A DNA stretch of 40,794 nt from a virus (lineage: Duplodnaviria; Caudoviricetes), in IMG/VR virus record IMGVR_UViG_3300012943_000045, positions 1-40,794 of that record. One strand, 5' to 3'. Below the pieces are notes generated by a model, which worked only from the letters and a program-made list of their open reading frames with translations, made no database searches and was not told the origin of the DNA. Positions 11,444 through 38,260 of this stretch are shown piece by piece. Position numbers and translations under genes: made by a program. Position 1 is the stretch's first letter, and every line of letters begins with the position of its first letter.

Positions 11444-11468
11444 AGACCCACATTCTACCAAACAATCG

Positions 11469-11546
11469 TGAAGCGCCAGGGATTCGGACCCTGCTCCGTG
11501 CCGTGCGCCTTAACGCCTTACGTCACGTCGAAACCAAGTGCGCCCC
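11469..11546 (-). ncRNA. Minimal tmRNA-like RNA (tRNA-like domain only)
   Basis: GGGGCGC-ACUUGGUUUCGA-CGUGACGU..ACGGCACG-GAG-CAGGG UCCGAAU CCCUG-GCGCUUC-A; G3.U70 pair and A73. Confidence 0.75.
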
Positions 11547-11663
11547 AGTAAAACTACGCCTGCCGGATAGAAGCCAGCCCAGCCTGCGAGCTAAACCTAC
11601 GAGTCGAGTCAGCTACCACTACGTCCATAGCCGAAGTGGTATCGCCCCCAGGAGCGCTGCGGA

Positions 11664-11912
11664 CTATCCCGCCACTGTCGTACACAGGGTGGTCGCTGGG
11701 AACTCGTTCGCTCTCCCACCCCCCCCCCCCTCAATGCGGGTTCCATTGAGAAAGGGTCGTAGCGGCGGGGCGCTCTCCGTCAACTCAACCACCTCCGGCC
11801 CTCGCGAAACATCCGCAACACTCAAATCCGGGTCCGGCGCAACCACCTGCTGAATCTTCCGCAAACTGCGCTCAATCCTCGTCAAAAGACGAACAATCTC
11901 TTTGTCACTCAC
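11664..11912 (-). CDS. Hypothetical protein containing a G12 tract
   Basis: Probable GTG start overlapping the previous gene (MSDKEIVRLL); the 3' end depends on the homopolymer length. Confidence 0.5.
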   Translation of the reverse strand: MSDKEIVRLLTRIERSLRKIQQVVAPDPDLSVADVSRGPEVVELTESAPPLRPFLNGTRIEGGGGGRANEFPATTLCTTVAG

Positions 11913-12108
11913 GTCCCGCTCCGATCTCAAAGTCGTACTGGTCAAGTGCCGCATCAAACAAACTACGGTGGTCCGGGTCCGCCGCCGTCTCCACGTAAAA
12001 CAACAGCCGCTCCCTGGGCGAGGAGACCAACCACACCCACGACTCAACGTCAGAAAGAAACGGCTGGTACGTCAACTCCAGATCAATCGCCCCGAACCGC
12101 ATATTCAT
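11905..12108 (-). CDS. Hypothetical protein
   Basis: 67 aa; TAATG coupling to the upstream ORF. Confidence 0.55.
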   Translation of the reverse strand: MNMRFGAIDLELTYQPFLSDVESWVWLVSSPRERLLFYVETAADPDHRSLFDAALDQYDFEIGAGRE

Positions 12109-12254
12109 TACCGGATCACGTTCTCTTCAAGCTCCAGCAACTCAATCTTCGCCCACAAAGATTCAGTCTGCGAATTGACGGGAGCCATCACCCCACGGAA
12201 CCCCACATAAATATCTGCAAGCAGATCATGCAGATCGCCACTCTTCAACTTCAC
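12108..12254 (-). CDS. Hypothetical protein, 48 aa (not in the ORF track)
   Basis: GTGA overlap with the peptidase stop; MKLKSGDLHDLLADIY...; fills the gap exactly. Confidence 0.55.
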   Translation of the reverse strand: MKLKSGDLHDLLADIYVGFRGVMAPVNSQTESLWAKIELLELEENVIR

Positions 12255-12784
12255 TTCATAAGCCTTTCCGCGCTATACTCGATCACTTTCGCCCCAGTAT
12301 ACACATCAAACTCCGCAGCAATCCGCACAGCGTCCTTCGGAGTTGCTCCAGCGCGCAAAGCACCCAACGCATATGACGAGCCGGAGCCGATGGCGGCAAA
12401 CCTCGCATTGCCAATTAGGGCAAAATCTGACCCCAGCGTGAACAGGCGACCATTCACGGCCAGCAGGGCCTCGTAATTTGAGCTTACTTCTCCATTATCG
12501 TTTTCCAGAGCGCCCGAGTTGGTCAACTCTTTTTGTACTGCCGGGACGAGTTCGGTTATCAGCCACCTCTCCAGTCGCACGCCCTTCAAGCCCACAGGGA
12601 TCTGTGGAAGCTCAGCGAATCTGAGAATGTCAGAGACTCGGCAAGCACCGGCAACGCCAAATACCACGGAACCGTTCGCGAAGACCTTGGTCCTACCGGC
12701 AGTGGCACGTGCTCCAGCGGTAGACTGCGTGTCGGAAGCGAATGCAACATCTCCGAAATACTCTTTTGCAATGATCGTGGTCAA
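12251..12784 (-). CDS. HslV / proteasome-beta-like Ntn peptidase
   Basis: TTG start after GGAG gives (M)TTIIA; ASDTQ, TKVF, GVAG and AIGSGSSYALGAL motifs. Confidence 0.8.
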   Translation of the reverse strand: MTTIIAKEYFGDVAFASDTQSTAGARATAGRTKVFANGSVVFGVAGACRVSDILRFAELPQIPVGLKGVRLERWLITELVPAVQKELTNSGALENDNGEVSSNYEALLAVNGRLFTLGSDFALIGNARFAAIGSGSSYALGALRAGATPKDAVRIAAEFDVYTGAKVIEYSAERLMK

Positions 12785-12990
12785 ATTTTCTCCTCCTGGG
12801 CATCCGCCCACTTCGTCAGTTGTGCAGCTAAGTAGTGGGCGTGCTCGGGCTCAAGTTTAAATGTGGAATATCCAGTTTCACTTATCTCTAAAACTCCGTC
12901 TGAAATAAGGTAGATGCCACTCTCATTCTGGCCGCTTTCCGGGATTCCCTCAAGGCTCAGAATTTCCATACGCTCACTCGCGCCGCTCAC
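12781..12990 (-). CDS. Hypothetical protein
   Basis: 69 aa; 4-bp overlaps on both sides. Confidence 0.6.
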   Translation of the reverse strand: MSGASERMEILSLEGIPESGQNESGIYLISDGVLEISETGYSTFKLEPEHAHYLAAQLTKWADAQEEKI

Positions 12991-13280
12991 GGCAGACTCG
13001 AAACGTGCGCATCAATCGTGTCCTGGACCATCTTCGCCACGTAACTAGAGTTGATCTGGGCAATTGGAATGTAGGGAATACTGAATCCACGCTTCACGCC
13101 ATCCATCTCCAGAGTCACACGAATCCCCTGTTCGGCAAAGGACAGTGATTCGCCAGCCTCCCGGAGCGCAATTAGGCCCTCCCTTGCCTCTTGAAGACCG
13201 GCTAAGACGACCCTGTTCTGCTCACATAGCCTGTCCATCAAATCAACCAAATTAGGACTGATGCCAACATTCTCACTCAT
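12987..13280 (-). CDS. Hypothetical protein
   Basis: Probable ATG (MSENVG) overlapping the previous gene's end. Confidence 0.6.
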   Translation of the reverse strand: MSENVGISPNLVDLMDRLCEQNRVVLAGLQEAREGLIALREAGESLSFAEQGIRVTLEMDGVKRGFSIPYIPIAQINSSYVAKMVQDTIDAHVSSLP

Positions 13281-13548
13281 TTCCACCACTCTCCCCAATG
13301 CGCAACAGAATCAAATAACCAATCAAATCCAACACAGTGTCCTCACCAGCATCAGACCCCCGAGCCAGACGGGACAGTTTGTCGTCGATGCGAACACGCA
13401 GTCCATCAGAAGCGCTCGCCGAAGAAAACACACGCAGCGGCTCCAAGGCGGAATTACCGTACGCCTCGTTCTTGCTGATTAGCACCTCCCGCACAGTCGC
13501 CAACTCACGATCCACGCTATCAACAAACTCAGAAACAAAAACAGCCAT
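13273..13548 (-). CDS. DUF1599 / nucleotide-modification-associated domain 1-like protein
   Basis: KNEAYGNS, RIDDKLSRL, EDTVLDLIGYLILL motifs. Confidence 0.78.
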   Translation of the reverse strand: MAVFVSEFVDSVDRELATVREVLISKNEAYGNSALEPLRVFSSASASDGLRVRIDDKLSRLARGSDAGEDTVLDLIGYLILLRIGESGGNE

Positions 13549-13703
13549 CAGGCAACATCCTCTCTACCCAGCTCAAACAAACTCACGCCGACCAGGTAAC
13601 GCTTATTATCTGGCCCCACCCACACCAGCGTAGAACCCTCCTCCGAGATGTCGGGAACATTCTCCACTAATTCATCACGCAAAAACGGGAACATATCAGC
13701 CAC
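13548..13703 (-). CDS. Hypothetical protein, 51 aa (not in the ORF track)
   Basis: GTG after GAGGA; TGATG coupling to the next gene. Confidence 0.5.
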   Translation of the reverse strand: MADMFPFLRDELVENVPDISEEGSTLVWVGPDNKRYLVGVSLFELGREDVA

Positions 13704-13705
13704 GA

Positions 13706-13846
13706 CTAATCCTCTCCCAACTGCTCAATTTCGTAATTGTCACTCAACAGATAACGCTCCGGGATATCCTCGTACCGCTCATACTCACCCACAGTGACGT
13801 AAGAACAATACTCGTCCGCCTCAATCTGAGTCACCATATAGGTCAA
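13706..13846 (-). CDS. Hypothetical acidic protein, 46 aa (not in the ORF track)
   Basis: TTGA overlap with the upstream gene; open to TAG at 13706. Confidence 0.45.
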   Translation of the reverse strand: MTYMVTQIEADEYCSYVTVGEYERYEDIPERYLLSDNYEIEQLGED

Positions 13847-14052
13847 TTCAATGGCCCCCAAATCTCATATGCCGCGTGAGAGCCACAGTACATCGCTGCT
13901 AGCGAAAAAGCTACCATGACCAAGCCTGCCAGGGCTGGGCCAGTGAACTCACCCGATTCCCGCTTCTCGAAGAGAATCCAAATCGAACCCCCTCCCCACA
14001 CGGCGGCAACCATGGAAGCCACGAAGCCCAATAGCCATAAAACTAAACTCAC
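13843..14052 (-). CDS. Small membrane protein (2 TM)
   Basis: Two hydrophobic segments; first gene after the leftward promoter. Confidence 0.6.
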   Translation of the reverse strand: MSLVLWLLGFVASMVAAVWGGGSIWILFEKRESGEFTGPALAGLVMVAFSLAAMYCGSHAAYEIWGPLN

Positions 14053-14076
14053 CTCAACACCCCTCTCGTTTCAATA

Positions 14077-14106
14077 AACCTACCAGCTCCGAATCAGGGA
14101 AAGCAA
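14077..14106 (-). promoter_or_regulatory. Leftward promoter
   Basis: TTGCTT-N18-TAGGTT with TG extension. Confidence 0.6.
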
Positions 14107-14484
14107 GTCTAGGAGCAAAAAGTTTGAAAAGAAAAAATGAGGCCACGGATCGCCCAACAACACAAGTGCATTGCAGAGAGATGCGTTACGCCATGGGCTA
14201 GAAAAAGTTCACAATAAAAAATTGGATGCGAGGGTGCCCCACGCCCATTTTCCGTGCATCTTACACCAAAATCCGAGTTCTTTCAATCCTTTTCCAAAAC
14301 TTTCCCGCAATCCCCTGCGCTCGCTCATCCACTTGCCTTCCCTTCGCTCATCTGCTATGCTTTCCGCCCTGCGCCGTACCAGTTGACCAGTCTCTTCCGT
14401 CGCCTGTCACGCGCTCCCCTCTCAGCCGTGCCATCTCGGCGCTGCCAACCAGCTCTGCCATCTACTCTTTGCCCACTTTCCCTA

Positions 14485-14522
14485 TTGACTTCCTTGCTCT
14501 CGCTTACTAGGCTGGGACCATG
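14485..14522 (+). promoter_or_regulatory. Rightward leaderless promoter
   Basis: TTGACT-N17-TAGGCT-N6-ATG. Confidence 0.75.
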
Positions 14523-14825
14523 ACAACACACACTCTTCCCCCCGTTTCTCGTACCGTTCACCGTACGCGCCTGGCGCTAGCTATCGTCGCCGGTGTTGCG
14601 CTCGGCTCTACTGTCGCTACCGTGAATCACTCGGTGATCTCAGTGCCAGCTCCCGCCACCGTCTCCACTGTCTCGCCTGCTGCCCTCGTGTCGTCCTTGT
14701 CTCCTTGTGCTACTGAGGACTCGCGCGATTGCTATTGGCTTGCCAGTGAGCACGGCAACCGCTCCGGTCGATCGTTCATTGACGTTGGGGGCGAAACTAT
14801 TTACCTCGATGGGCTTGACAAGTAA
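14520..14825 (+). CDS. Membrane-anchored or secreted small protein
   Basis: N-terminal TM/signal segment; C-terminal PCATEDSRDCYW..GN..GRSF motif recurrent in actinophage early genes. Confidence 0.7.
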   Translation: MTTHTLPPVSRTVHRTRLALAIVAGVALGSTVATVNHSVISVPAPATVSTVSPAALVSSLSPCATEDSRDCYWLASEHGNRSGRSFIDVGGETIYLDGLDK

Positions 14826-14844
14826 GAGTCACCCGTCGTAGACT
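14815..14844 (+). promoter_or_regulatory. SigA-like promoter
   Basis: TTGACA-N18-TAGACT. Confidence 0.7.
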
Positions 14845-14853
14845 TGTGGTACA

Positions 14854-15079
14854 CACCAACACAAACAAGGGGTAGAGATAATGAACGCGATCAACAGTAC
14901 GCCGCATATCAGTCACTACAGCGATGCTTGGCTGTTGCGTGAGGTTCGTTCTACTGCCAGGCTGAGTAGGGGGGATGCGGCACGGCGCGAACTCGCTCGA
15001 CGCGGCATCATCGCCCCCGCGCCCAGGATCACGACCAGCGCCCGCTAGCCACCAACACAAACAAGGGACAGGGATAATG
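14854..15079 (+). repeat. Duplicated start-associated leader
   Basis: CACCAACACAAACAAGGG..AG.GATAATG at 14854-14883 and 15050-15079. Confidence 0.9.
14881..15048 (+). CDS. Hypothetical basic protein, 55 aa (not in the ORF track)
   Basis: ATG within the first leader repeat; MNAINSTPHISHYSDAWLLREV...ARRELARRG. Confidence 0.65.
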   Translation: MNAINSTPHISHYSDAWLLREVRSTARLSRGDAARRELARRGIIAPAPRITTSAR

Positions 15080-15436
15080 ACAACCTACGCACGTAATGCA
15101 ATCTACTCGACCGACGACCTTATCGCCGTCTCGGACGCTACAGGGGGATTCTTCTTTAGCGCTAAGACTATGAAATTCTGGAAGACGCGCGTACTGAACT
15201 ATCTGCGGGCTGTTGACGGCTACACATGCGAGCCCGGCGGGCGTTACGTCTTCATCACTAGCGACGTGTTCGGCTACGATGCGGTGCGCCAATACAGTGT
15301 GCGAGTGATGACCCTCGGCACGCGGGGGGATGGCCGCGCGTTTGTCAACTTCGACACTATCGAGCACTATTCCACGCGGGGGCAGGCGATTAGCGCGGCT
15401 GATGTTTACGTGGCGAACATTCCGGTTAACGCCTAG
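15077..15436 (+). CDS. Hypothetical early protein
   Basis: ATG within the second leader repeat; FFSAKTMKFWKTRV, FITS, RQYSVR motifs. Confidence 0.75.
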   Translation: MTTYARNAIYSTDDLIAVSDATGGFFFSAKTMKFWKTRVLNYLRAVDGYTCEPGGRYVFITSDVFGYDAVRQYSVRVMTLGTRGDGRAFVNFDTIEHYSTRGQAISAADVYVANIPVNA

Positions 15437-15444
15437 GAAGCATC

Positions 15445-15648
15445 ATGTACAAGATCATCGACACCACCAATCGCTTCGCCACCATGGCGGTTCCAGACCG
15501 GAGCGACATCATCGAATTCGTACGCCCCATGTTCGAACCGGGCCGCTCCCTTGAGGTTGACAGCGCGCTGAATATGCTGGAGCTGGCAATTGCGCGGGAG
15601 CTGCCCACGGGTGAGCTTGAGGCGTTCCTGGGTATCACCATTCTGTAA
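15445..15648 (+). CDS. Hypothetical protein
   Basis: AGGAAG RBS; 67 aa. Confidence 0.7.
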   Translation: MYKIIDTTNRFATMAVPDRSDIIEFVRPMFEPGRSLEVDSALNMLELAIARELPTGELEAFLGITIL

Positions 15649-15650
15649 CA

Positions 15651-15710
15651 AGTCGAAACACGCTCTCGGGCGTGTCCTCCCGCGATAGCCGTTCGGGAGC
15701 TGATGAGACT
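15651..15710 (+). ncRNA. Type II hammerhead ribozyme
   Basis: Stem II AGUC/GACU, GAAA, stem III ACACGCU/GGCGUGU, GUC site (C15676), stem I CUCCCG/CGGGAG, CUGAUGA core. Confidence 0.93.
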
Positions 15711-15746
15711 AGGCGAAAGAAACAACGATCTTAAGGAAGCGTTAAA

Positions 15747-15878
15747 ATGTCGCAATCTTTCGAAGCTAAAGCAGTTTACGTGTCACGCAAAGTTGCGGAC
15801 CGTGAAAGAACTACGATTCTTAAAGCAGCGCGCACCGATAAGGCTGTCGCGCGTGCATCGTTCGGGGGTGCACGATGA
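15747..15878 (+). CDS. Hypothetical basic protein, 43 aa (not in the ORF track)
   Basis: AAGGAAG RBS; ATGA overlap with the next gene. Confidence 0.6.
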   Translation: MSQSFEAKAVYVSRKVADRERTTILKAARTDKAVARASFGGAR

Positions 15879-16078
15879 TCCCGTGCGAGGTCTGCCACAA
15901 CCTATCTGATAGGCATGACACCTATTGCCCGCGACAGGCCGGAGCTTTCCCAGCGCCCCGGCCTGGTGACAAGTGCCGCTTCATCGGAAACCATCAGGTC
16001 GAGCACGCGGACGACTGTGACCAGTGGGGCAAGGGCGTCGTCACCGATGCCCGCACCGGAAGGCGGGTTCGCTCGTGA
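15875..16078 (+). CDS. Small Cys/His-rich protein
   Basis: CxxC..HxxxC and C..HxxxC pairs; 4-bp overlaps. Confidence 0.6.
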   Translation: MIPCEVCHNLSDRHDTYCPRQAGAFPAPRPGDKCRFIGNHQVEHADDCDQWGKGVVTDARTGRRVRS

Positions 16079-16206
16079 TTCCTCTGCCGGACAACCCCTT
16101 CTACCGGGCCATGGCGATTCTCCACCTTGAGGAGACCGGCCACCCCCTAGATGCATTGCTTGACACAACAAAGGTAAATGATCGGATGATCCGTTACTGC
16201 TGCTAG
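16075..16206 (+). CDS. Hypothetical protein
   Basis: GTGA overlap; ends just before the terminator. Confidence 0.5.
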   Translation: MIPLPDNPFYRAMAILHLEETGHPLDALLDTTKVNDRMIRYCC

Positions 16207-16213
16207 CCCTGCC

Positions 16214-16250
16214 AGAAACGCCCCCGCCTACTCTCGGGGGCGTTTCTTTT
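16214..16250 (+). terminator. Intrinsic terminator closing the early operon
   Basis: AGAAACGCCCCCG/CGGGGGCGTTTCT followed by Ts. Confidence 0.85.
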
Positions 16251-16757
16251 GCCCGCAAACACGTCGGTAAGTCTTGACTTTCGGGCAAACCTGTGGTATC
16301 ACGCGCGCGCATCGCGAGGGAAGACACCTGTCAACGCTTGAAGTTGCACGTCACAGGACGCTCCCTCACGTCGCGTACGCGCGTATAGCACACCCTGGCA
16401 CGATCAACCGCTCCCAGGACGCCACGGGGGCATTGCAGGGCGCTACGGGGTGCATTGAGCCGCATTACACAACCCACGGTTTCAACGACATAGCTCTAGG
16501 AGGTCACAGAATGCGATCTAAGCGACTTGCACTGGAAAGTGACACAAACACCCGTGGAGACGATCTAAGGGCTTCTACGGGCATTCTGTGGCCTGTGGGG
16601 GGCTATTCCCGCCTTGGACGGTGGCCCGAAGCGCACACTGGGGACCGGAGCGAAAAGTGACCTGGGAAGCGTGACATCGAGAAGAGTTCGGGAATGACGC
16701 CTAATAGCGACTTCACGCCTCAGAACCACGGGGCCTTTTTTGAACTTTCGGATTCTG

Positions 16758-17190
16758 AGAGTTATCCACATGCTGTAGCGCAGCGAAAGTACTTTGTATC
16801 AATGTTTGTCATAACGCCCTATACGTATACCCTTCGAAAAATACCTCTATTTTCTAAGATGACAACTAGTGATGAGAGATTATAAATGTGTATTAAGAGA
16901 ACCCCCCCTCATCCTCTCCCGCTTGTTTACTGCCTTATTTTCTTTTTTCCAGAAAGCTACCAAGTCGCTTACCTCGGTTTTCGACCCTCCTTTTTGCCAG
17001 AACACTATTTAGAACACTATTTTGTTTGCAACAGAATAGTCGTCTGCCAGAGTGCTCTGGCTCAGTAGTGATCTGCAAGAGGCCACCATAAGTGTTTTAT
17101 GCCTTGTTGACACTGTCCACTTCGCTACCGACAACTTTTTTGTTCGGTGCTGATTGAAGAGTTATCCACATGCGAGCGAAGCGAGTAAGG
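16758..17190 (+). promoter_or_regulatory. Origin-like region with two consensus DnaA boxes
   Basis: TTATCCACA at 16762-16770 and 17162-17170 in the shared context AGAGTTATCCACATGC; AT-rich DNA between them. Confidence 0.55.
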
Positions 17191-17214
17191 AGCGCCAGCG
17201 ACCCGCTTTGGGCA

Positions 17215-17288
17215 ACAAGGGGTGCAAGGGTGACACCAGTGACAAGGGGTAAAAAGGTGACACCAGTGACAAGGGGTGCAAGGGTGAC
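17215..17288 (+). repeat. 27-bp tandem repeat, about 2.7 copies
   Basis: ACAAGGGGT(GC/AA)AA(G/A)GGTGACACCAGTG starting at 17215, 17242, 17269. Confidence 0.92.
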
Positions 17289-17338
17289 TGGGTAAAATCC
17301 TGTGCGTAAAACGAGGCGGTAAAAAGGTTGCCAAGGTG

Positions 17339-17367
17339 TTGCGTTCGGACCGACGTAATAGTAGACT
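17339..17367 (+). promoter_or_regulatory. Promoter of the long rightward operon
   Basis: TTGCGT-N17-TAGACT. Confidence 0.55.
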
Positions 17368-17402
17368 CGGGCGAGAGCGCAATTAGAGGAAGGGGTCTTC
17401 AG

Positions 17403-17711
17403 ATGAAACCAAGGAACAGATTCAAAGCCACTATTACTGTCATCGATTTGATGAACATGGACAGAAGTGAAGTGGAGATGGTAGTACGGGATGGTAAAAA
17501 CAAACTTAGGGTAGCTGAACTTTTGAAGGTCGATCTGCACGGGCCAGGGTTGCCCGCAATCGTTAGTAGCCGCACCACGCTGAAGAACGGATTTCGTTGG
17601 TACGGGACACATAGTTACCCAAGCAGCACCTCGCCAGTGGAGATTTGGCTAAAGTCGAAGTTTGCCGACAGGCCTCTACATGTGGATGGCAAGAAAAGGG
17701 GGAACAAATGA
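17403..17711 (+). CDS. Hypothetical protein
   Basis: ATG after GAGGAAGGGG; overlaps the next start. Confidence 0.6.
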   Translation: MKPRNRFKATITVIDLMNMDRSEVEMVVRDGKNKLRVAELLKVDLHGPGLPAIVSSRTTLKNGFRWYGTHSYPSSTSPVEIWLKSKFADRPLHVDGKKRGNK

Positions 17712-18388
17712 GCACCACAGAACCAGAGACGTGCACCCCAGCGCAGGCTGCTAAAGAATACGTTGAGCACCCAGCAATAGGTGAGCCGACAATAACAATT
17801 GCCAACCCTGGTTACGTGCTAGCTGTCGAGGCGGAGAGCAGGCGCAACGCGGCAATCGCTCAGCTGCGCGAGGTCCAGAAGTTAGCCCAGGGCCACAAGC
17901 ATCGAGCAGACAACGCGGAGAAAGAGCGTGACCAGGCGATAAAAGCATTCGCAGCGCTCAAGGAGTCGTCCGCGAAGTGTGACGTGGAGCGTATTGACCT
18001 ACGGGCGGAGCGCGACCAGTTGCTAAGCGACCTGCTAGAGGAGCGCGCTCAAAGTCAGGCGGACGCGGCGGTAGCCATTGGGCGCATGGCGAGTGAGGTT
18101 CTTGGCAGGGAGGCGATGCGGGCTTTGAGCTTTGCACTCAAGATGAAAGTTGATTACGAGGATTCCGAGGAGGAAGTAGTGAGTAAGGTTGAGCAAATAG
18201 AACTCCGTGCAAAGGACTTGAAGGTTGGTGATAGCGTCCAGGTTTCAAAAACGCCTCAGGCTGTTGTTACAGTGCCGCGGGAGGGTCTTTACTTAGTGGC
18301 CGAGGGGGAGCAGGTGGAAATCCACCTTGGGGGCGGTTCGGCCATTCTGTCTCGGAGCGAGTGGGATGAGATAGTGGGTGCGCTGTGA
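17708..18388 (+). CDS. Coiled-coil hypothetical protein
   Basis: Long Ala/Glu/Arg helical region; C-terminal RAKDLKVGD motif. Confidence 0.7.
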   Translation: MSTTEPETCTPAQAAKEYVEHPAIGEPTITIANPGYVLAVEAESRRNAAIAQLREVQKLAQGHKHRADNAEKERDQAIKAFAALKESSAKCDVERIDLRAERDQLLSDLLEERAQSQADAAVAIGRMASEVLGREAMRALSFALKMKVDYEDSEEEVVSKVEQIELRAKDLKVGDSVQVSKTPQAVVTVPREGLYLVAEGEQVEIHLGGGSAILSRSEWDEIVGAL

Positions 18389-19028: not shown

Positions 19029-19177
19029 TCATCAACCCTGAGCGCGAGACGAGCGGCGTCGATCCCGTCACTGCCTATCGCTGGTACTGCGCGGCGTGCG
19101 ATGAGGTCGGCATCGAGTTCGACTCGGGCGACGCAGAGCAGAGCCTCTACGAGCACGAGGACGAGCGTCATGACTGA
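19025..19177 (+). CDS. Small acidic CxxC protein, 50 aa (not in the ORF track)
   Basis: GGGAG RBS, ATGA overlap; YRWYCAACDE...H. Confidence 0.6.
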   Translation: MIINPERETSGVDPVTAYRWYCAACDEVGIEFDSGDAEQSLYEHEDERHD

Positions 19178-19201
19178 GCGCAAATCGCAGGGTTCCGAGA
19201 C

Positions 19202-19936: not shown

Positions 19937-19952
19937 TTGAGGGGAGATTGAA

Positions 19953-29524: not shown

Positions 29525-29525
29525 C

Positions 29526-31535: not shown

Positions 31536-31544
31536 GGAGAGATT

Positions 31545-32264
31545 ATGACTGAGAATAAGACTGAGAAGCTGATCTACAAGAAGATTATTGCTGTACTCAA
31601 GGATGTTGGGGCGGTGGCGAAGAGCGAGAAGAACGTTGAGCAGAAGTTCAATTATCGAGGCATCGATGCGGTAGTGAACGCGGTGAATCCGGTACTCAAG
31701 AAGCACGAAGTGTTTATTGCGCACAATGTTCTTCGACACGAGACTGAGCGATACGAGAACGCGAACAAGAAGATTGTCACTGATGCCCAGGTTGAGATTG
31801 AATACACCTGGTACGCGGAAGACGGCTCTAGCCTGTCGAATACGGCAGTCGGTGAAGCTCGTGACTTTGCGGATAAGGCTACAGCTAAGGCGATGTCGGT
31901 GGCGTTCCGAACACACCTGCTCCAGCTACTTGCCCTTCCCACGGACGAGCGTGACCCAGACTCAGAGTCGCTGGAGGTTACCGTGGGTGATAACGGACGT
32001 GCCAAGCCAGGAAGCAAGCCAGCTCAGGCGACACAAGCCGCAACAGCGCCCACCGGACCCAGCCTGGGAGACTTCCAGGCAACGATTCGTCAGATCATCA
32101 GCAACGACGAGGTGGTGAACGAGAAAACTGGTGCGGTTGTAGACACCTCGAAGATCACGGCTCTCAAGCTGAACGAGATGGGAACCAAGCTTGTGCCGGA
32201 GGGTGTTGACTACAAGCGTGACGCCAATGCTCTCCAGAAGCTGATCGAGGAGATTCTTGGCTAA
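31545..32264 (+). CDS. ERF-family ssDNA annealing protein
   Basis: K..KN..QKFNYRGIDAV, GEARDFADKATAKAMSVA, LPTDERDPD. Confidence 0.88.
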   Translation: MTENKTEKLIYKKIIAVLKDVGAVAKSEKNVEQKFNYRGIDAVVNAVNPVLKKHEVFIAHNVLRHETERYENANKKIVTDAQVEIEYTWYAEDGSSLSNTAVGEARDFADKATAKAMSVAFRTHLLQLLALPTDERDPDSESLEVTVGDNGRAKPGSKPAQATQAATAPTGPSLGDFQATIRQIISNDEVVNEKTGAVVDTSKITALKLNEMGTKLVPEGVDYKRDANALQKLIEEILG

Positions 32265-33051
32265 GCCAGAGTTAGCCCAGTACTACTCCGAGAAGCAGGA
32301 TGACGGCAGGGCATACAAGCACCCGCTAACGGGCGAGACCGTGCCCTCTGTCACCACCGTGCTTAAGATGGCAGACAAGTCAGGGCTGGCCCAGTGGGCA
32401 GCGGACAAGGCGGTTGAGTGGTGTGTGCTGAACTGGCACCTACTCGGGTCACGCTCTGATGAGGATGCCTACCGCGCGGCGCGTTGGCAGTGGAAGAAGG
32501 TTCGGGACGAGCGTGCGCAAGTTGGCACGGGGGTCCATGAGGCCATCGAGGACGAGCATTCCGACACGTTCAATATGCCGGAACTAGACGAAGAGCAGGA
32601 GCGCATTATGCTCCAGTGGGAACAACTCAAACTAGAGCACGAGATTGTTCCCGTGATGTCAGAGATGACCGTCTGGGAGCCTGGGCTGTATGCTGGCACG
32701 AGTGACGGTCTGTGGTGGATTGACGGGGTGCTCACGCTGGTTGATATCAAGACCAGCAAGAACATCTGGCCGGAACACTTCGCACAATTGGCTGCACTGC
32801 TTTTTGCGAGCAAGCTCATGGTCAAGGACTCCAAGACAGGTGCGTGGTCAGAGGAGGATCGCCCCGACCCGTCACAGGCTGCTATCATTCACCTGCGTGA
32901 GGACAAGCACGAGATTATCATTGTGGAAGATCTGGACTTGCATTACGATAAGTTCATGGGGTACCATCAAGTGTGGACAGCCACACAGGCAGTAAAGTCA
33001 AGAGAAAAAGCCAGACTGGCTGAGGGAAAACAGGAGGATGGTAAGCAGTGA
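32257..33051 (+). CDS. PD-(D/E)XK (Cas4-like) exonuclease
   Basis: VPSVTTVL, GTGVHEAIE, YAGTSD, LVDIKTS, QLAA. Confidence 0.88.
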   Translation: MAKPELAQYYSEKQDDGRAYKHPLTGETVPSVTTVLKMADKSGLAQWAADKAVEWCVLNWHLLGSRSDEDAYRAARWQWKKVRDERAQVGTGVHEAIEDEHSDTFNMPELDEEQERIMLQWEQLKLEHEIVPVMSEMTVWEPGLYAGTSDGLWWIDGVLTLVDIKTSKNIWPEHFAQLAALLFASKLMVKDSKTGAWSEEDRPDPSQAAIIHLREDKHEIIIVEDLDLHYDKFMGYHQVWTATQAVKSREKARLAEGKQEDGKQ

Positions 33052-33254
33052 GCAGGCTTAAAAGTAGACACGATCTAGTGGCAATCGCAGAGGATATTTT
33101 GTCCGATTACCTCTACGACAACGACATCGAGTACAGTACCGTTTATGAAAGCGAGCGGGCTGCGGGCCTCACGGAAGACGATCAACTTGAGGTCCACAGG
33201 CTGGTGAACTCAGCTAGTATTAGTTTTGTAATTGGGAACAAGGAGGATAAGTAA
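33048..33254 (+). CDS. Hypothetical acidic protein
   Basis: GGAGG RBS; GTGA overlap. Confidence 0.65.
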   Translation: MSRLKSRHDLVAIAEDILSDYLYDNDIEYSTVYESERAAGLTEDDQLEVHRLVNSASISFVIGNKEDK

Positions 33255-33255
33255 T

Positions 33256-33579
33256 ATGGCGTACATCAACATTCGAGGTGCGGTTGTCGAGCGCGAGTTC
33301 AGCGGCGGCAAGGGTTTTGCCATCGCAGAGAAGTTTGAGGACCGTGAGGGTAACCAGCGCTCCAAGCCTTTCACTGTATGGTTCGACGAGCCGCGAGAGC
33401 TTCCGGTGGGTACGGTTGCTGATTTCAGCGGACTCTACTCCGATAAGATCGAGAAGTTTAAGAACGATAAGGGTGAAGATGTTCACGTAATCCGTCGCAG
33501 CATCAACAGCGTGAAGGTTGACAACGAGGTTGCTCCAGGCGGAGCATCTGCTGGCGGGGAAGCGGAGACGCCTTGGTAG
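33256..33579 (+). CDS. Single-stranded DNA-binding protein (OB fold)
   Basis: AGGAGG RBS; FTVWF, G....FSG pattern; flexible tail ending ETPW; follows ERF and exonuclease. Confidence 0.75.
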   Translation: MAYINIRGAVVEREFSGGKGFAIAEKFEDREGNQRSKPFTVWFDEPRELPVGTVADFSGLYSDKIEKFKNDKGEDVHVIRRSINSVKVDNEVAPGGASAGGEAETPW

Positions 33580-33774
33580 CCTAGAGACTTGCAAGTAGCC
33601 CCTAGGTGGTCCACTTTTTCCACGTAGGGTATGCCTCGCAATCCGAAGTCCATCGGGGCAAGAAAACGGACACATTGCTGGGCGTCGTCCTGCGGGATTG
33701 GCGCAGTCGGTAGCATCGCTGGTGCGCTACCTCCTTTTACACCCCGAGGCTCTAGACAACTTGGGCAGCCAGCA

Positions 33775-33846
33775 CCCTGCCACGACCGGCGTCAAGTTTG
33801 AATAGGCGTAGGTGCGGTTCTAGCGGTTCAATTCCGGTGGCAGGGA
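33775..33846 (+). ncRNA. tRNA-like element lacking a D arm
   Basis: CCCUGCCAC/GUGGCAGGG acceptor-like stem, A discriminator, CGG-UUCAAUU-CCG T arm, one irregular central hairpin. Confidence 0.55.
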
Positions 33847-33849
33847 CTA

Positions 33850-33945
33850 GGTGGGATGGAGTCAACGTGGGGTTACTGACATTGACCACGAAGGCTGACT
33901 GGGGTTCTCCTTTGCCCTGTAGCGGCAGACCTGCTCCAACCCACC
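33850..33945 (+). ncRNA. Structured RNA (three-way junction), family unknown
   Basis: Closing stem GGUGGGAUGGAG/CUCCAACCCACC with two internal hairpins. Confidence 0.5.
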
Positions 33946-33977
33946 AAAACTTTTAGCAACCAAGCAACAAGGAGGCC

Positions 33978-36395
33978 GTGAACACGTTGGCAAAAGATAA
34001 CCTGACAGTGGCCCTCGGCCTAGCCAAACTCGGCCTCCACGTCTTCCCGTTCACAACGTTTGTGGACTCAACGGGTAAGACCAGGAAGCGTCCACTAGTC
34101 AAGAACGGTCACCTCGACTCGACCACCGACACAGACACAATTGCTACCTGGTTCAGCATGGACTTCACGGCACCCTCCACTGGCGTTGCCGTCCACTGTG
34201 GCCCGTCAGGGCTGGTTGCACTCGACGTTGATGTGAAAGACGGCAAGAACGGCTTCGACACCGTAGACAGCGAGTGGCTAGAGGTCCCCGACACCTACCC
34301 GCAGGACACTCCCACGGGCGGCAGACACTACGTGTACGCAGCCCCAGCAGACTCTACGGGTCTTGGTCCCGCAGCGCCCTACAGGGGCCTAGAGGGGCTC
34401 GACAGACGCGCAGGCTCCAGCTGGATCGGCTGGTACTCTGGCGTCCCCGAGAGTCGCGACGCATTCACCACCGCCCCCGAGTGGCTACTGGACCGCGCGG
34501 CAGACCGGGACGCATCGGGTTTTAGCGACGGCTACAAAAAGTGGCTGGAGGCCATTCCCCAGGGCGACCCCACTGAGACCGTCAAGCAGATCATCACCGA
34601 CCTGCCCACAGACAACTTTGGGCACCAAGAAATTGTTGAGATTACCTACCGACTTGTGCGACTCGCTGCCGAAGGACACACTGGTGTCAACTGGGCACTC
34701 GACAAGATGCACGAGAAGTGGGTCCGCCCACCCTATGACCAGCCCGAGAACATCAAAGAACTTCGGGACGCAATCTCTGGCGCAGTACGGAAGGCTGGGG
34801 CGGAAGACGCCCAAATTGCAGCGCTGCCAACCTACTCGGAAGCCCTTGACTCGCTCCCCGCACAGTTCGACCTCACGAGCATTTCTGGGGAGAAGTGCAG
34901 CAAGGCTGAATGGTTCTCTGCCATCAGGTCACTTGTCACCCAAGGCTTTGACGACAATACAATTGCCGCCCTCGTGTGGTCCGCCCCGCGCCTGAAAGCA
35001 TGGTCGCGTGACTGGGGGCTCGACTACCTCATTCAGCAGATTGTCATGGCGCGCTCAGACATCGCTTCCGTTGGCGTGAACCCGGTTGCTGACGAGCCAA
35101 AGCAGAATCGACCGAGCATCTCCCTGCTCACCGATGCTGAACGAGCTCAGGCGGACGCGGAGTATACCTTCATCGACCGCTACATGGAGTGGATCGACTC
35201 ACGCCTAGACAAATATAACGCTCCCTACCACCTGTTCTCGGCCTGGACTATTTGTTCACTGGGTATGGGCATGTTCGGGTTCCTGCCCTACCAGTCGCGC
35301 AACCACGGCGTCAACTTCTTTGGTGCAGCGCTAGGCGAGAGTGGAACTGGAAAGTCGGACGCGCTGGGGATGCGTGCCAAGGTTGAGAAGGAAATGTTTG
35401 CCGACGACCCCAGCTACGACATCGGGTCCGACGTAACGATCCAGGCCCTCCAGGCTGTTCTTATCGAACGTGACGGAAAGCCAAGCTTCTTCAACGCTGA
35501 CGAGGCTGCCGGAGTGTTCAAGCAGATCAGCGAAACGAAACATCTTGACGGGCTGATCGACCGCCTAACCGACTACTACGAGGGCTACGTCAAGCCCGTG
35601 CTCCGAACTGGGAACAAGGAGTTGAGCGGCAAGAGTGCTATGACCAGTCTGAACATTGCGATGATCGGAACCCCTGATCGTGTGACTGAAGTTCTCACCA
35701 AAGACCTGTTCCTGTCAGGCTTCCTGGCACGGTTCGGTTGGTGGATCGGCGACACCATCGAGGAGTCGGACAGCCAATACCAGGAGTCGCAGGCCGAAGG
35801 CGTCCAGGCGGAATCTGATACTGACCCCGTGGCGCAAGCACTAGCGTTGGACATCAAGGTTGCGCGTGGCCTAATCGGAGAGACCAAGCGGCACCCCGTG
35901 AGGGGAACCCCGGCAGCCTTGGAGCGCATGGGTCTCAATCGAAAAACAATGAAGGTTTCTGTTGAGGGTGAAGAGAACTACCAGATCATGGAGCCTTCCG
36001 TTCGCCGCCTTGGTGACATTGTGCGCAAGTTCAGTGCGCTACTCGCGCTCTCGGAGGGTCTGGCCACGTTTGACGTTAGGCACGTTTTAGTGGCGATTCA
36101 GCACGCAGAATACCTCCTCGAAAACTTGATAACTGTCAGTGGCATGATTACCTCGGGGGCATTCGAGCGTGAGTGTGCGGAGATTGAGGCGTGGATTAAG
36201 TCCAGCTCTAACGGTGGGTCGGCGTCTGAGGCGCAGATTTACCACCGCTTCCGCAGCCTTATCAAGTTTGATGCGCGGGAGCTGGATAGTCGCTTGCATT
36301 TCCTGGAGCGTTCGGATAGGCTCGTCAAAATCGAAGCCACCGGCTCCAAGGGAACTAGGTGGGCAATCAACATGAACAGGGGGAGCAGTGACTGA
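33978..36395 (+). CDS. Bifunctional DNA primase/polymerase fused to a P-loop helicase-like domain (DUF3987-like)
   Basis: VFP, LVALDVDVK, TPTGGRHYVY, LDRR; GESGTGKS, NADEA, SGFLARF; C-terminal wHTH-like region. Confidence 0.9.
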   Translation: MNTLAKDNLTVALGLAKLGLHVFPFTTFVDSTGKTRKRPLVKNGHLDSTTDTDTIATWFSMDFTAPSTGVAVHCGPSGLVALDVDVKDGKNGFDTVDSEWLEVPDTYPQDTPTGGRHYVYAAPADSTGLGPAAPYRGLEGLDRRAGSSWIGWYSGVPESRDAFTTAPEWLLDRAADRDASGFSDGYKKWLEAIPQGDPTETVKQIITDLPTDNFGHQEIVEITYRLVRLAAEGHTGVNWALDKMHEKWVRPPYDQPENIKELRDAISGAVRKAGAEDAQIAALPTYSEALDSLPAQFDLTSISGEKCSKAEWFSAIRSLVTQGFDDNTIAALVWSAPRLKAWSRDWGLDYLIQQIVMARSDIASVGVNPVADEPKQNRPSISLLTDAERAQADAEYTFIDRYMEWIDSRLDKYNAPYHLFSAWTICSLGMGMFGFLPYQSRNHGVNFFGAALGESGTGKSDALGMRAKVEKEMFADDPSYDIGSDVTIQALQAVLIERDGKPSFFNADEAAGVFKQISETKHLDGLIDRLTDYYEGYVKPVLRTGNKELSGKSAMTSLNIAMIGTPDRVTEVLTKDLFLSGFLARFGWWIGDTIEESDSQYQESQAEGVQAESDTDPVAQALALDIKVARGLIGETKRHPVRGTPAALERMGLNRKTMKVSVEGEENYQIMEPSVRRLGDIVRKFSALLALSEGLATFDVRHVLVAIQHAEYLLENLITVSGMITSGAFERECAEIEAWIKSSSNGGSASEAQIYHRFRSLIKFDARELDSRLHFLERSDRLVKIEATGSKGTRWAINMNRGSSD

Positions 36396-36708
36396 CTTCG
36401 AATACCTCAACATTTACCCCTGGTCGCTATGGCCCGAATGGCAGGAGCGCGTCAAGGAGGCAAAAGGCTCCCTTGAAACTAATATCAAGGTTGTTCCGCG
36501 TGAGGCTCGTCCGGGATGCGGCAGAGTGCTTGCTTTCGAGGAGCCACCATTCGCCTGCGAGTACGGGCTAATCCAGTCTGGGGCGGGTCTGGCCAAGGCG
36601 CTAGAGTGCTACCTGGGGCTGGCAACGTCGTCACAGTGGCGCACGATGGCCGACTCGCTCGCCACAATGGACCCCAGGCTGATCGGCACAGAAGAGATCC
36701 ACCAGTGA
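36388..36708 (+). CDS. Hypothetical protein
   Basis: GGGGAG RBS; overlaps the primase end. Confidence 0.65.
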   Translation: MTDFEYLNIYPWSLWPEWQERVKEAKGSLETNIKVVPREARPGCGRVLAFEEPPFACEYGLIQSGAGLAKALECYLGLATSSQWRTMADSLATMDPRLIGTEEIHQ

Positions 36709-37199
36709 CGGCCTGTGGCTATCAGATGATCCCGCCTGGCAAGAAGTTCGTTGCCTGGGAGTGTGAGCGTCCAGAGGGGCACCAGCCTCCTGAGGACCAC
36801 GGCTTCGTTGACTTCGAGCGTAGCGACCGGGACCGCTTGCGCGCGACATACGCAGATGCTGGCAAATCTGATAAAGTTGAGGCTCGCGAGGCTACCGTAC
36901 TGGTCCCACAGCATAGAATCCCGATGACAGATGTTCTGACCCGCACAAAGACAGGCGCATGGTCACAGTCCAGTGGTGTCGGCAAGCTTGTGGCGGTTCT
37001 GGAGGGTCTGGGATACGAGATGCATGCGATGGAGTCCCAATATGCGGTCGGTGTGAACGAACCGGAGACTGAAAGGTGGGTTATCGCTGGGAAGCATGGA
37101 TCAAGAATCAAGGCCAGCAAGACCGGTGGTTCATGGGTCTATCAACACAACGGAAGCATTGTTGCTTTACCGGAACTAATCAAGGAGGTAGTGGCGTGA
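36705..37199 (+). CDS. Hypothetical protein
   Basis: GTGA overlap; C..CERPEGH...H motif. Confidence 0.6.
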   Translation: MTACGYQMIPPGKKFVAWECERPEGHQPPEDHGFVDFERSDRDRLRATYADAGKSDKVEAREATVLVPQHRIPMTDVLTRTKTGAWSQSSGVGKLVAVLEGLGYEMHAMESQYAVGVNEPETERWVIAGKHGSRIKASKTGGSWVYQHNGSIVALPELIKEVVA

Positions 37200-37420
37200 T
37201 TGTAAAGACTGAAAGTGGCAGCACGTACGAGTTCAATGACAAAGTGACCGAAGTTAGGCGTTTCGGTGCCGGGGAGCTGCGTCGTGACCAGGAGTGGCTT
37301 GCTGTTGAGCCGTGGTTCCCAATCGAGGTCGGGCGGATGATGGTGCTTGCCCTGGAACCCTTGGGTGACGGTAACTTGACTATTCGACAGACGACCCCTG
37401 TTGTTGAGGTGCTACCGTGA
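37196..37420 (+). CDS. Hypothetical protein
   Basis: AAGGAGG RBS; TESGSTY...TTPVVEV family pattern. Confidence 0.7.
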   Translation: MIVKTESGSTYEFNDKVTEVRRFGAGELRRDQEWLAVEPWFPIEVGRMMVLALEPLGDGNLTIRQTTPVVEVLP

Positions 37421-37686
37421 CACTGGCACTGAGGCAGGTGATGCTGGAATATGCCCAGGCCATTCGTGGTGACTGGAGTGACTTCGACGGCAGGAGTGAG
37501 AAAGGGATCATAGAGTCCTGGGTCAGCGAGATGGACTTGCCGGAGGAGTCCCATACACCTGCATGGTGGCGCGATGAACTAAACCTATGCCCAGACGGAA
37601 ACGGTCACTGGGTTGGGTTCATATACGGACACTGTAGCGTGACTGAATGCCCAGTGTCTGCTGAAAGGGAAGGCGAGAATGAGTGA
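37417..37686 (+). CDS. Hypothetical protein
   Basis: GAGG RBS; GTGA overlap. Confidence 0.6.
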   Translation: MTLALRQVMLEYAQAIRGDWSDFDGRSEKGIIESWVSEMDLPEESHTPAWWRDELNLCPDGNGHWVGFIYGHCSVTECPVSAEREGENE

Positions 37687-37921
37687 ACTGCATGAGGTGA
37701 CGGCCAATATTCGACTCCACAGGCTTCGTCGGTACGTGGATGGAGAGATTGAGCGCTGGGAGCGGGAAAGGGCCTCGCTAGACGGAGACAATGGCATTAG
37801 GCAGTATAGGGGGTATGCTGACGGCAGAATCGATGCACTTAGAAATCTACAAACGTTCTACCTATTGACGCCAGAAGAGGCTTCTGATGCAGAAGCGATG
37901 CGCAGGGAGATGTTTGGGTAG
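37679..37921 (+). CDS. Hypothetical protein
   Basis: Overlaps the previous gene; Y.GYADGRIDAL helix. Confidence 0.6.
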   Translation: MSELHEVTANIRLHRLRRYVDGEIERWERERASLDGDNGIRQYRGYADGRIDALRNLQTFYLLTPEEASDAEAMRREMFG

Positions 37922-37961
37922 TGTGGTAGCATTTTTAGGTTGGTTATCAATAACTAAATAA

Positions 37962-38095
37962 CGGCTGATAGTTCAACAGGTGTAGCCTTCGCAACCGACA
38001 GACCCGATTCTAGACACTCGTGGTAACTGGGATTCATGCAAGGTTCAGAACACTGGGAGTTGCCCCAGAGATACGGTTCGATTCCGTGAAGCCGA
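37962..38095 (+). ncRNA. tRNA-derived RNA with a ~65-nt D-loop insertion and a degenerate anticodon loop
   Basis: CGGCU/AGCCG acceptor, UAGUUCA...GAAC D stem, CUGGG/CCCAG stem with 6-nt loop, ACGG-UUCGAUU-CCGU T arm. Confidence 0.65.
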
Positions 38096-38098
38096 CAA

Positions 38099-38260
38099 TG
38101 CGAGACAAAGCTCAGTGATTGCGCTTACCAGGATTTTCTGGTGTGAGAACGCTCCGCTGGGTGGAGAAGGTTGCAACCCTCGCAGAAGACCCGGTACTGA
38201 CGTAAATGGCGAAAGCCCAGTCAGCTAAGTCAAATTACAGCCAGGCACCTTTTTGTAACT
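38099..38260 (+). ncRNA. Structured RNA, family unknown
   Basis: UGCGAG/CUCGCA, ACCAG/CUGGU, CUCCGC/GUGGAG, CUGAC/GUCAG capped by GGC-GAAA-GCC. Confidence 0.5.

What the first reader, a model, noticed from the sequence alone, without database searches (positions are those of the whole stretch)
11466..38260. Candidate system: three non-decoding tRNA mimics, each abutting a separate structured RNA
Seen: three intergenic gaps (11460-11660, 33580-33975, 37925-38280) each hold an element that keeps an acceptor stem, T arm and A discriminator. None has a usable anticodon, none encodes CCA (CGA, CUA, CAA), and each sits within a few nt of a multi-stem RNA. I saw no canonical tRNA in the window. Known: RNase P and 3' tRNA-processing enzymes recognise the acceptor/T coaxial stack. 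Inference: the mimics may be processing signals that excise neighbouring phage sRNAs, or decoys for tRNA-targeting defence nucleases and translation quality-control factors.
Basis: inference. Interest (0 to 1): 0.8.

Follow-up and report, generated by a model that had tools for sequence, protein, structure and literature searches.

The report
Phage RNA docked on tRNA ends
This soil phage carries three unrelated tRNA-shaped RNA genes that cannot read codons, one of a known kind, and behind one of them sits a conserved, apparently undescribed folded RNA that many phages place exactly at tRNA 3' ends, where it likely cuts itself off to finish the tRNA.

Summary
The three elements are real, at the stated coordinates and beyond chance (3 vs 0.12 in shuffles), but they are not one system. 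E1 (11546-11469, -) is a message-less mini-tmRNA: known from phage DS6A, common in phages (91 distinct relatives), and found by this scan before on other DNA. Its upstream neighbour shows no structure signal. E2 is an orphan 12-bp acceptor/T stack in the slot where related Microbacterium phages keep tRNA-Leu. E3 is a conserved mimic (long D-loop insert, 6-nt loop) with one homologue showing compensatory changes.

The new part is the RNA behind E3 (38096-38247). I found 37 distinct copies in phages and prophages. Each begins with CAA at or within one base of tRNA positions 74-76, behind eight tRNA isotypes or behind non-decoding mimics. Two helices covary strongly, and a variable palindrome suggests dimers. 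It has no Rfam match, fails the HDV/theta ribozyme test, and my literature searches did not find it. Most likely it is a self-cleaving 3'-end trimmer working like theta ribozymes (about 40%); the main rival is a small RNA released by host tRNA processing (about 30%). No activity was tested and no RNA data exist here.

The parts
11466..11546 (-). E1: TLD-only mini-tmRNA (78 nt to A73 at 11469, tail CGA): 7/7 acceptor with G3.U70, GGUUUCGAC loop, capped helix 2, GGAG connector, T arm; no message domain
   Evidence: same layout as the two ends of a Microbacterium tmRNA and the DS6A copy
11547..11663 (-). Spacer upstream of E1, claimed as a structured RNA; not supported
   Evidence: z -0.36 and +0.16; only a 15-nt match at E 0.37 in 401 loci
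33580..33774 (+). Upstream part of the SSB-primase gap; two short pieces (about 33643-33672 and 33675-33713) recur in the RNA arrays of other phages
   Evidence: matches to L219/G306 (E 2e-6) and L326 (E 9e-6); folding z -1.30, -0.93
33775..33849 (+). E2: orphan tRNA-like RNA, 12-bp acceptor/T stack (7/5 with G.G, or 9/3), A73 at 33846, tail CTA, one internal hairpin
   Evidence: (z -1.97); syntenic with tRNA-Leu of WaterT, Cassita, Lifes, LeeroyJenkins; no homologue
33850..33945 (+). Candidate structured RNA behind E2 (closing helix 33850-33861/33934-33945); orphan, not the E3 trailer family
   Evidence: z -2.42; no hit with model R1; no homologue
37962..38095 (+). E3: non-decoding tRNA mimic; D stem 37971-37974/38048-38051 around a 73-nt loop, anticodon-position stem 38053-38057/38064-38068 with 6-nt loop, T arm 38072-38088, A73 at 38095
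   Evidence: homologue in L219/G306 with compensatory changes
38096..38247 (+). Trailer RNA (undescribed family): CAA 38096-38098; helix A 38099-38104/38179-38184; palindrome 38170-38177; GAAGA 38185-38189; helix B 38190-38195/38240-38245 (one C.A mismatch); CA 38246-38247; U-rich tail follows
   Evidence: 44.8 bits, E about 5e-16, on a model built without the window copy; coordinates

Best explanation
The three tRNA-shaped genes are independent phage RNA modules, and the RNA behind E3 is a conserved 3'-end module that docks at position 74 of whatever tRNA or tRNA mimic precedes it and likely cuts itself off there as a self-cleaving ribozyme, doing the job of theta ribozymes with a different fold. 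Shown: the modules, their conservation, the register, two covarying helices, the palindrome, and free mixing of trailer and partner among related phages. Inferred: host RNase P makes the 5' ends; the conserved unpaired bases (CAA, GAAGW, CR) meet at the junction of the two helices and form the active site; the cut falls at C74|A75 or at the foot of helix A; the host CCA-adding enzyme heals and completes the end; the palindrome pairs two molecules. E1 likely is alanylated, binds SmpB and dampens host trans-translation, as reported for the DS6A form. E2 and E3 likely are stable tRNA-shaped carriers or decoys for proteins that read the elbow or acceptor end; their targets are not identified.
For: Register: in three scans whose patterns held no tRNA feature (tallied), 28 of 33 hits with both helices intact had a T arm 10-14 nt upstream, against 4 of 68 other hits (some sequences occur in two collections). 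Of 37 distinct copies, 30 have the canonical 12-nt spacing, 6 have 11, 1 has 13. Structure: 97% of cells paired, 8 of 12 pairs with two-sided changes, covariation 0.48 vs 0.12 shuffled and at most 0.09 for slid partners; helix B pairs 3-7, not in any pattern, 165 of 185 vs 90. Generic partner: 8 isotypes in 21 ARAGORN calls, 15 of 37 with no call; theta ribozymes likewise follow all isotypes and 4.5% encode CCA (PMC10879173). Small fixed core with free loops: 79-160 nt, 62 nt in a Cece copy. C follows helix B in 10 of 10 copies from the scan that left the 3' end free (9 CA, 1 CG), the place of the catalytic C in the HDV order of helices. The phage also carries a hammerhead. E1: 89 of 91 relatives 7/7 acceptor, 90 of 91 G3.U70, 91 of 91 A73; inhibition by the DS6A form per PMC4131195 and PMC11915505.
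Against: No cleavage was tested. The HDV core is missing: a P3/L3 fits in 5 of 37 vs 9.4 in shuffles, and helix A starts with U in 34 of 37. The tail pseudoknot is weak (269 of 5000 partner shuffles as good; 2 of 200 letter shuffles). CAA, GAAGW and CC/GG were in most search patterns, so their invariance is partly built in; copies outside the model show AAAG and GGAG. About 40% of partners are non-decoding, which fits the rival that the tRNA shape serves the trailer. No CCA-adding-family gene in the window (record 44% complete). The window copy folds no better than shuffles (z -0.15) and holds the set's only mismatch at pair 3 of helix B.
Confidence: 0.4

Rival explanations
1. The trailer is a small RNA in its own right, a palindrome-joined dimer with swappable loops; the tRNA or mimic in front is the handle by which host RNase P and RNase Z-type enzymes release it with an exact 5' end.
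For: 15 of 37 partners get no ARAGORN call; 5 of 7 related genomes scanned (two only in part) carry a non-decoding mimic plus trailer. Perfect palindromes of 8 nt or more in 24 of 33 copies found without that feature in the query vs 0 of 37 in two control segments; self-duplex -10.3 vs -4.5/-4.9 kcal/mol. The inner pairs cannot form within one strand. STAAG in the second loop in 18 of 37 vs 2.6 shuffled. Precedent: M. smegmatis YrlA is cut by RNase P and gets CCA (PMC4201824).
Against: All conserved unpaired bases cluster at the tRNA junction; loops share little (31 clusters among 37); no antisense target in the window beyond 12-nt matches; the same mimic occurs with and without trailer (WaterT vs Cassita; E3 vs its homologue).
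Confidence: 0.3
2. The trailer is a cap that hides the tRNA 3' end (CAA in place of CCA, structured dimer) to delay maturation or to shield or decoy against toxins and defence enzymes that act on tRNA ends; mimics plus cap are counter-defence RNAs.
For: Exact docking at 74-76; phage and prophage context only (8 of 8 bacterial loci tested have phage-family neighbours; 1 of 151 phylum-level genomes, the seed); phage tRNAs are proposed to evade tRNA-targeting defences (PMC10264068, search listing only).
Against: No target enzyme identified; decoding tRNAs must lose the cap to work; it does not explain the C after helix B.
Confidence: 0.12
3. The trailer is a mini-intron inside the CCA end: removing AA...GG joins C74 to the following CA and makes N73-C-C-A.
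For: That excision gives CCA in 35 of 37 copies and 9 of 10 in the 3'-unconstrained scan; both would-be splice sites meet at one junction; Lifes reads A-CCA where three relatives read A-C-[trailer]-CA before the same downstream sequence.
Against: 2 of 37 plus L288 would give CCG; the Lifes tRNA is a different one; the empty site behind the same mimic in Cassita reads CTT, not CCA; no intron family matched; host CCA repair makes splicing unnecessary (my knowledge).
Confidence: 0.08
4. The trailer is a selfish or neutral DNA insert tolerated at tRNA 3' ends, and E2/E3 are decaying tRNAs.
For: Patchy presence behind the same RNA; HNH genes near 4 of 8 prophage loci; E2 has no homologue.
Against: Two-sided covariation in two helices and a palindrome that changes sequence while staying self-complementary; one or two copies per genome; E3 keeps its odd anatomy with compensatory changes.
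Confidence: 0.07
5. The three mimics and their neighbours form one coordinated system.
For: All three are real, intergenic and non-decoding; mini-tmRNA relatives show some upstream structure (z below -2 in 21 of 59 vs 7 of 59 controls).
Against: Different families; 0 of 91 mini-tmRNAs carry the trailer; 0 of 5 trailer-bearing genomes match the mini-tmRNA pattern; the trailer model misses the E1 and E2 neighbours.
Confidence: 0.03

Closest known systems
TLD-only tmRNA of Mycobacterium phage DS6A (tmID 11587; PMC4131195, PMC11915505)
   Same: E1 has the same build: about 80 nt, G3.U70, A73, tmRNA-type loop, capped helix 2, T arm, no message, non-CCA tail.
   Different: E1 has GGAG where 68 of 91 relatives have GGAC (none GGAG) and a UCCG T loop. 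The 2025 database lists 9 unique 'standard, no CDS' sequences, while one partial scan gave 91 distinct phage copies.
Theta ribozymes (minimal HDV-like; PMC10879173)
   Same: Phage RNA directly at the tRNA 3' end, any isotype, CCA almost never encoded; helix A of about 7 bp near the junction; C first after the last closed helix.
   Different: No P3/L3 (5 of 37 vs 9.4 by chance), U rather than G first, large helix B domain present where theta lacks P4, three fixed bases CAA before helix A, palindrome. Identified carriers are mostly Microbacterium phages/prophages and uncultured phage contigs, not gut Bacteroidota phages; many partners are non-decoding.
CPEB3 HDV-like ribozyme dimer (bioRxiv 2022.09.22.508989)
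   Same: A palindrome just 5' of the P1 3' strand joins two molecules.
   Different: CPEB3 keeps P3 and a 7-nt L3 with a 4-nt palindrome; here an 8-nt palindrome has no closing stem.
YrlA Y RNAs (PMC4201824)
   Same: Non-decoding tRNA mimics, also in mycobacteriophages; one is an RNase P and CCA substrate.
   Different: No Rfam YrlA hit, no Ro60 family among scanned proteins, and the acceptor here is formed by the two ends, not by an internal stem-loop.
9/3 allo-tRNAs (PMC5389517)
   Same: E2 can be read as a 9-bp acceptor plus 3-bp T stem.
   Different: E2 lacks the D, anticodon and long variable arms; allo-tRNAs decode.

Membership tests
TLD-only tmRNA (E1) | 7-bp acceptor with G3.U70 and A73 | tested here: met
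TLD-only tmRNA (E1) | tmRNA-type unstemmed D loop (GG-UUCGAC), helix 2a, short connector, T arm | tested here: met
   same order as the ends of a Microbacterium tmRNA and DS6A; connector is GGAG, not GGAC
TLD-only tmRNA (E1) | No message domain or pseudoknots | tested here: met
   78 nt in all
TLD-only tmRNA (E1) | Alanylation, SmpB binding, inhibition of tagging | not testable with these tools
   inhibition reported for the DS6A form via PMC4131195 and PMC11915505; no smpB in the record
HDV-like / theta ribozyme (trailer) | P3 closing L3 directly before the 3' strand of P1, with P1.1 | tested here: not met
   5 of 37 vs 9.4 +/- 2.6 shuffled; helix set
HDV-like / theta ribozyme (trailer) | G1 (G.U wobble) at the first pair of P1 | tested here: not met
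   U in 34 of 37, G in 3
HDV-like / theta ribozyme (trailer) | P2 pseudoknot with the 3' tail | tested here: inconclusive
   269 of 5000 partner shuffles, 2 of 200 letter shuffles
HDV-like / theta ribozyme (trailer) | Cytosine first in J4/2 | tested here: met
   C after helix B in 10 of 10 unconstrained copies, 37 of 37 overall (partly built into patterns)
HDV-like / theta ribozyme (trailer) | Self-cleavage at the tRNA 3' end | not testable with these tools
   needs an in vitro assay
Any Rfam 15 family incl. twister, twister-sister, pistol, hatchet (trailer) | Match to the family model | tested here: not met
   no hit at E<=5 in the window or E<=1 in 14 loci, 13 of them with trailers
Canonical tRNA (E2, E3) | Cloverleaf with 7-nt anticodon loop and 12-bp acceptor+T stack | tested here: not met
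   ARAGORN 0; E3 6-nt loop and 11-position stack, kept in its homologue; E2 single internal hairpin
YrlA Y RNA (E2, E3) | Rfam model match and neighbouring Ro60 gene | tested here: not met
   record incomplete
9/3 allo-tRNA (E2) | 9/3 stack plus D, anticodon and long variable arms | tested here: not met
   stack fits, arms absent

The most novel reading that the evidence does not exclude
The trailer is a new class of small catalytic RNA, active as or regulated by a palindrome-joined dimer, that phages bolt onto decoding tRNAs and onto a zoo of non-decoding tRNA mimics to make their 3' ends; in its boldest form it splices itself out of the CCA end (C|AA...GG|CA) and so builds CCA.
Probability: 0.4. 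Interest if true: 0.92.

Novelty: new variant of a known kind. Interest (0 to 1): 0.72.

Why it matters
Few classes of small self-cleaving ribozymes are known (my knowledge), and theta ribozymes are the only precedent my searches found for a phage RNA fixed to tRNA 3' ends. A second, differently folded module in that position, present unannotated in cultured phages (WaterT, Cassita, LeeroyJenkins, Footloose, Cece), is testable in a day by in vitro transcription and then by genetics. Either outcome is useful: a new ribozyme class, or a dimeric phage small RNA released by tRNA processing. The work also shows that tRNA finders miss many conserved non-decoding tRNA mimics in actinobacterial phages, which bears on the open question of why phages carry tRNA genes. 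The mini-tmRNA alone is a known kind and would score low.

Tried and rejected
BLASTN of the three gaps against 50,697 phage records gave nothing for gap 1, two chance hits for gap 2, and only the Footloose lead plus one T-arm hit for gap 3. The search for related loci with primase found none and with terminase two. The first motif scan gave 28 loci, 3 real; one search gave 27 loci with 6 distinct real; one search gave 49 loci, mostly chance. No RNA holder listed for the window; the one DNA run may be the source and showed no variants or joints: no evidence on expression. Two-piece tmRNA for E1 with the upstream spacer as message: rejected, no structure signal or homologue. E2's downstream RNA as a trailer variant (it has a loose CAA/GAAGG/CA look): rejected by the model. 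N73 pairing with the W of GAAGW: 23 of 37 vs 23.6 shuffled, rejected. Twister, twister-sister, pistol, hatchet, hairpin and hammerhead likeness: considered from recall, no Rfam support. Antisense targets of the loops in the window: none beyond 12 nt. T4-type RNA ligase family in 5 trailer-bearing genomes: 0, but the control did not ring, so uninformative. Model hits under 30 bits in ORFs (L293, L366, L367) are chance; L374 (26.6 bits) was not inspected. The TRAILER flag for CN1A is a false positive. Plasmid BLAST gave chance hits only. L021 was dropped as a near-duplicate of L005 (38 to 37). Literature: ten searches found no description of the trailer. In PMC10690425 seven supplementary files were searched without a hit, but files 1 and 2 could not be searched, so the motif may be among its 10,006 candidates; subscription papers and motif sets outside Rfam are not covered.


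Full report
Setting. The window is a 40.8-kb virus record rated 44% complete. Its primase is 33% identical to those of Microbacterium phages WaterT, Lifes, Cassita, BarnCat and LeeroyJenkins; its terminase is 51% and 41% identical to two contigs of the lengths of Clavibacter phages CMP1 and CN1A. It is thus most likely a phage of Microbacteriaceae. ARAGORN finds no gene and Rfam has no match in the three gaps.

Observation. The claim about neighbours holds for E3, is weak for E2 (z -2.42 downstream, no homologue) and fails for E1 (z -0.36, +0.16).

E1. It has the two ends of a tmRNA joined by a short capped helix: 7/7 acceptor with G3.U70, the GGUUUCGAC loop, a GGAG connector and a T arm, in the order seen in a Microbacterium tmRNA. 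Of these 89 have 7/7 acceptors, 90 have G3.U70, 91 have A73 and 40 encode CCA; lengths are 62-92 nt (the pattern fixed the G-run, the loop and part of the T arm, not the 3' acceptor strand). This kind is known: PMC4131195 (passages) lists DS6A as 'TLD only' and says a similar molecule strongly inhibits tmRNA, perhaps by titrating SmpB; PMC11915505 (passages) says the DS6A form inhibits endogenous tmRNA in E. coli. Mao et al. 2009 I did not see. Earlier notes of this scan reached the same reading on other DNA. E1 sits before the small gene preceding terminase, where L003 has two ordinary tRNAs. None of the 91 carries the trailer described below.

E2. It lies between an SSB homologue and the primase, where WaterT, Cassita, Lifes and LeeroyJenkins have an annotated tRNA-Leu. 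Three of them also have an unannotated mimic with acceptor and T arm but no cloverleaf interior, and Lifes has one with a 5-nt loop. E2 forms 12 stacked pairs, as 7/5 with a G.G mismatch or as 9/3; 9/3 allo-tRNAs (PMC5389517, passages) have arms that E2 lacks. I found no homologue in 401 loci, so relic versus functional is open for E2.

E3. It is a cloverleaf with a 73-nt D loop, a 6-nt loop at the anticodon position and a stack one base short. A homologue in a related complete phage (L219/G306; terminase 43% identical) keeps all three oddities. The T stem changes A-U to G-C and U.G to U-A, the anticodon-position stem changes U-A to C-G, and the acceptor changes U-A to U.G. Two sequences are few, but this is what selection on the fold looks like. 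There the trailer lies upstream, behind another mimic, so partner and trailer mix freely.

The trailer. A 26-nt match led to Footloose, where the same core follows tRNA-Leu. Pattern scans and phage records gave 38 distinct copies, 37 after dropping a near-duplicate, in 31 clusters; six more were seen outside that set. Layout: N73, CAA, helix A (about 7 bp), variable hairpin, palindrome, helix A partner, GAAGW, helix B, variable loop, C-A/G, often a pyrimidine-rich tail. In the three scans with no tRNA feature in the pattern, 28 of 33 hits with both helices intact follow a T arm, against 4 of 68 others; of the 5 exceptions two have variant T loops, one is cut by the contig end and two look like chance. 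Spacing puts the C at position 74 in 30 of 37 and one base off in 7 (that script allowed 10-14). On the alignment of 36 copies without the window, 97% of cells pair and 8 of 12 pairs change on both sides; covariation is 0.48 against 0.12 in shuffles and at most 0.09 for slid partners (relatedness inflates the shuffle contrast, the slid control keeps it). The model scores the window copy at 44.8 bits, next hit 12.2, and misses the E1 and E2 neighbours. Partners are 21 ARAGORN tRNAs of 8 isotypes, 1 undetermined and 15 without a call, one of them truncated. In bacterial genomes the copies lie among phage-family genes (8 of 8 loci tested, 31 ORFs given). The model hit 3 of 151 family-level and 1 of 151 phylum-level genomes, the seed included.

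The palindrome. A perfect 8-10-nt palindrome abuts helix A in 28 of 37 copies, and in 24 of 33 found without it in the query, against 0 of 37 in two control segments. Its sequence varies around TGCA, GGCC and GATC centres, and copies not used for the model add AGCT and GCGC. Since the inner pairs cannot close within one strand, pairing between two molecules is the simple inference.

Mechanism. The order of elements recalls HDV-like ribozymes, with a C first after the last closed helix (10 of 10 where the 3' end was free), and the context recalls theta ribozymes (PMC10879173, parts 1-2 of 7 and passages). Membership fails: no P3/L3 (5 of 37 vs 9.4 by chance), U first in 34 of 37, and the tail pseudoknot is only suggestive (defining features from the introduction of bioRxiv 2022.09.22.508989). 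I still favour self-cleavage (0.40), because the fixed unpaired bases all meet at the tRNA junction, the loops are free, and the partner can be any isotype. Against it: nothing was assayed, several invariant bases were in my patterns, and two in five partners do not decode, which suits a small RNA released by host enzymes (0.30; precedent YrlA, PMC4201824, passages). An end-masking cap (0.12), a mini-intron whose removal would give CCA in 35 of 37 (0.08), a neutral insert (0.07) and one joint system (0.03) follow. That host RNase P, RNase Z and the CCA-adding enzyme act on these RNAs, and that the last can heal cyclic phosphates, rests on my knowledge, not on a call. Helix names A and B are mine.

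Novelty. E1 is a new member of a known kind. The trailer matches no Rfam family, and ten literature searches and the scan's own notes held no description. Two supplementary files of PMC10690425 (passages and seven files searched) could not be searched and may list it. I rate the whole as a new variant of a known kind, a phage RNA fixed to tRNA 3' ends, with a real chance of a new ribozyme class. Interest 0.72.

Noticed in passing
window 15651-15718 (+): Type II hammerhead ribozyme above the Rfam gathering score (38.4 vs 37 bits), intergenic between small early-type ORFs.
   Followed up: no
window 39234-39199 (-): abiF RNA motif (46.4 bits, gathering 37) about 130 nt downstream of a 402-aa exonuclease/metallophosphoesterase gene; no AbiF-like family was hit among the scanned proteins.
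   Followed up: no
window 8307-10946 (-): Terminase has an insert of about 350 aa relative to G306 (matches 6-72 and 424-841), likely an intein as annotated in CN1A.
   Followed up: partly
window about 11718-11730: Run of 13 C (G on the coding strand) inside the last small ORF before E1; may be a slippery site or an assembly artefact.
   Followed up: no
window 33643-33672; L219 1773-1744: 30-nt element with GAAGTCC and a short hairpin, shared with G306 where it sits 3 nt before a mimic's 5' end; resembles half of the trailer core.
   Followed up: partly
L152 42391-42293 (-), L154, L156, L155: Unannotated anticodon-less tRNA mimics in cultured Microbacterium phages WaterT, Cassita, LeeroyJenkins and Lifes; the LeeroyJenkins copy is followed by a CTA-starting RNA that may be a distant trailer variant.
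   Followed up: partly
L391 5373-5425 (G307); L397 10685-10754 (G310); L400 19889-19981 (G308): A 53-nt minimal mimic, a tRNA with a shortened anticodon loop and a tRNA-Asn with a long D-loop insert, each followed by the trailer.
   Followed up: partly
window 38190-38245; L176: The second loop of the window trailer is shared with G307 (82% over 85 nt with flanks), and a CUAAG/GUAAG word occurs in that loop in 18 of 37 copies.
   Followed up: partly
L158 3305-8474 (phage Cece): Spacers of the large tRNA array hold several further unannotated T-arm elements and two trailers, next to RNA ligase and RtcB genes.
   Followed up: partly
L033-L151: Upstream flanks of mini-tmRNAs fold better than shuffles in 21 of 59 vs 7 of 59 controls, possibly neighbouring tRNAs.
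   Followed up: no
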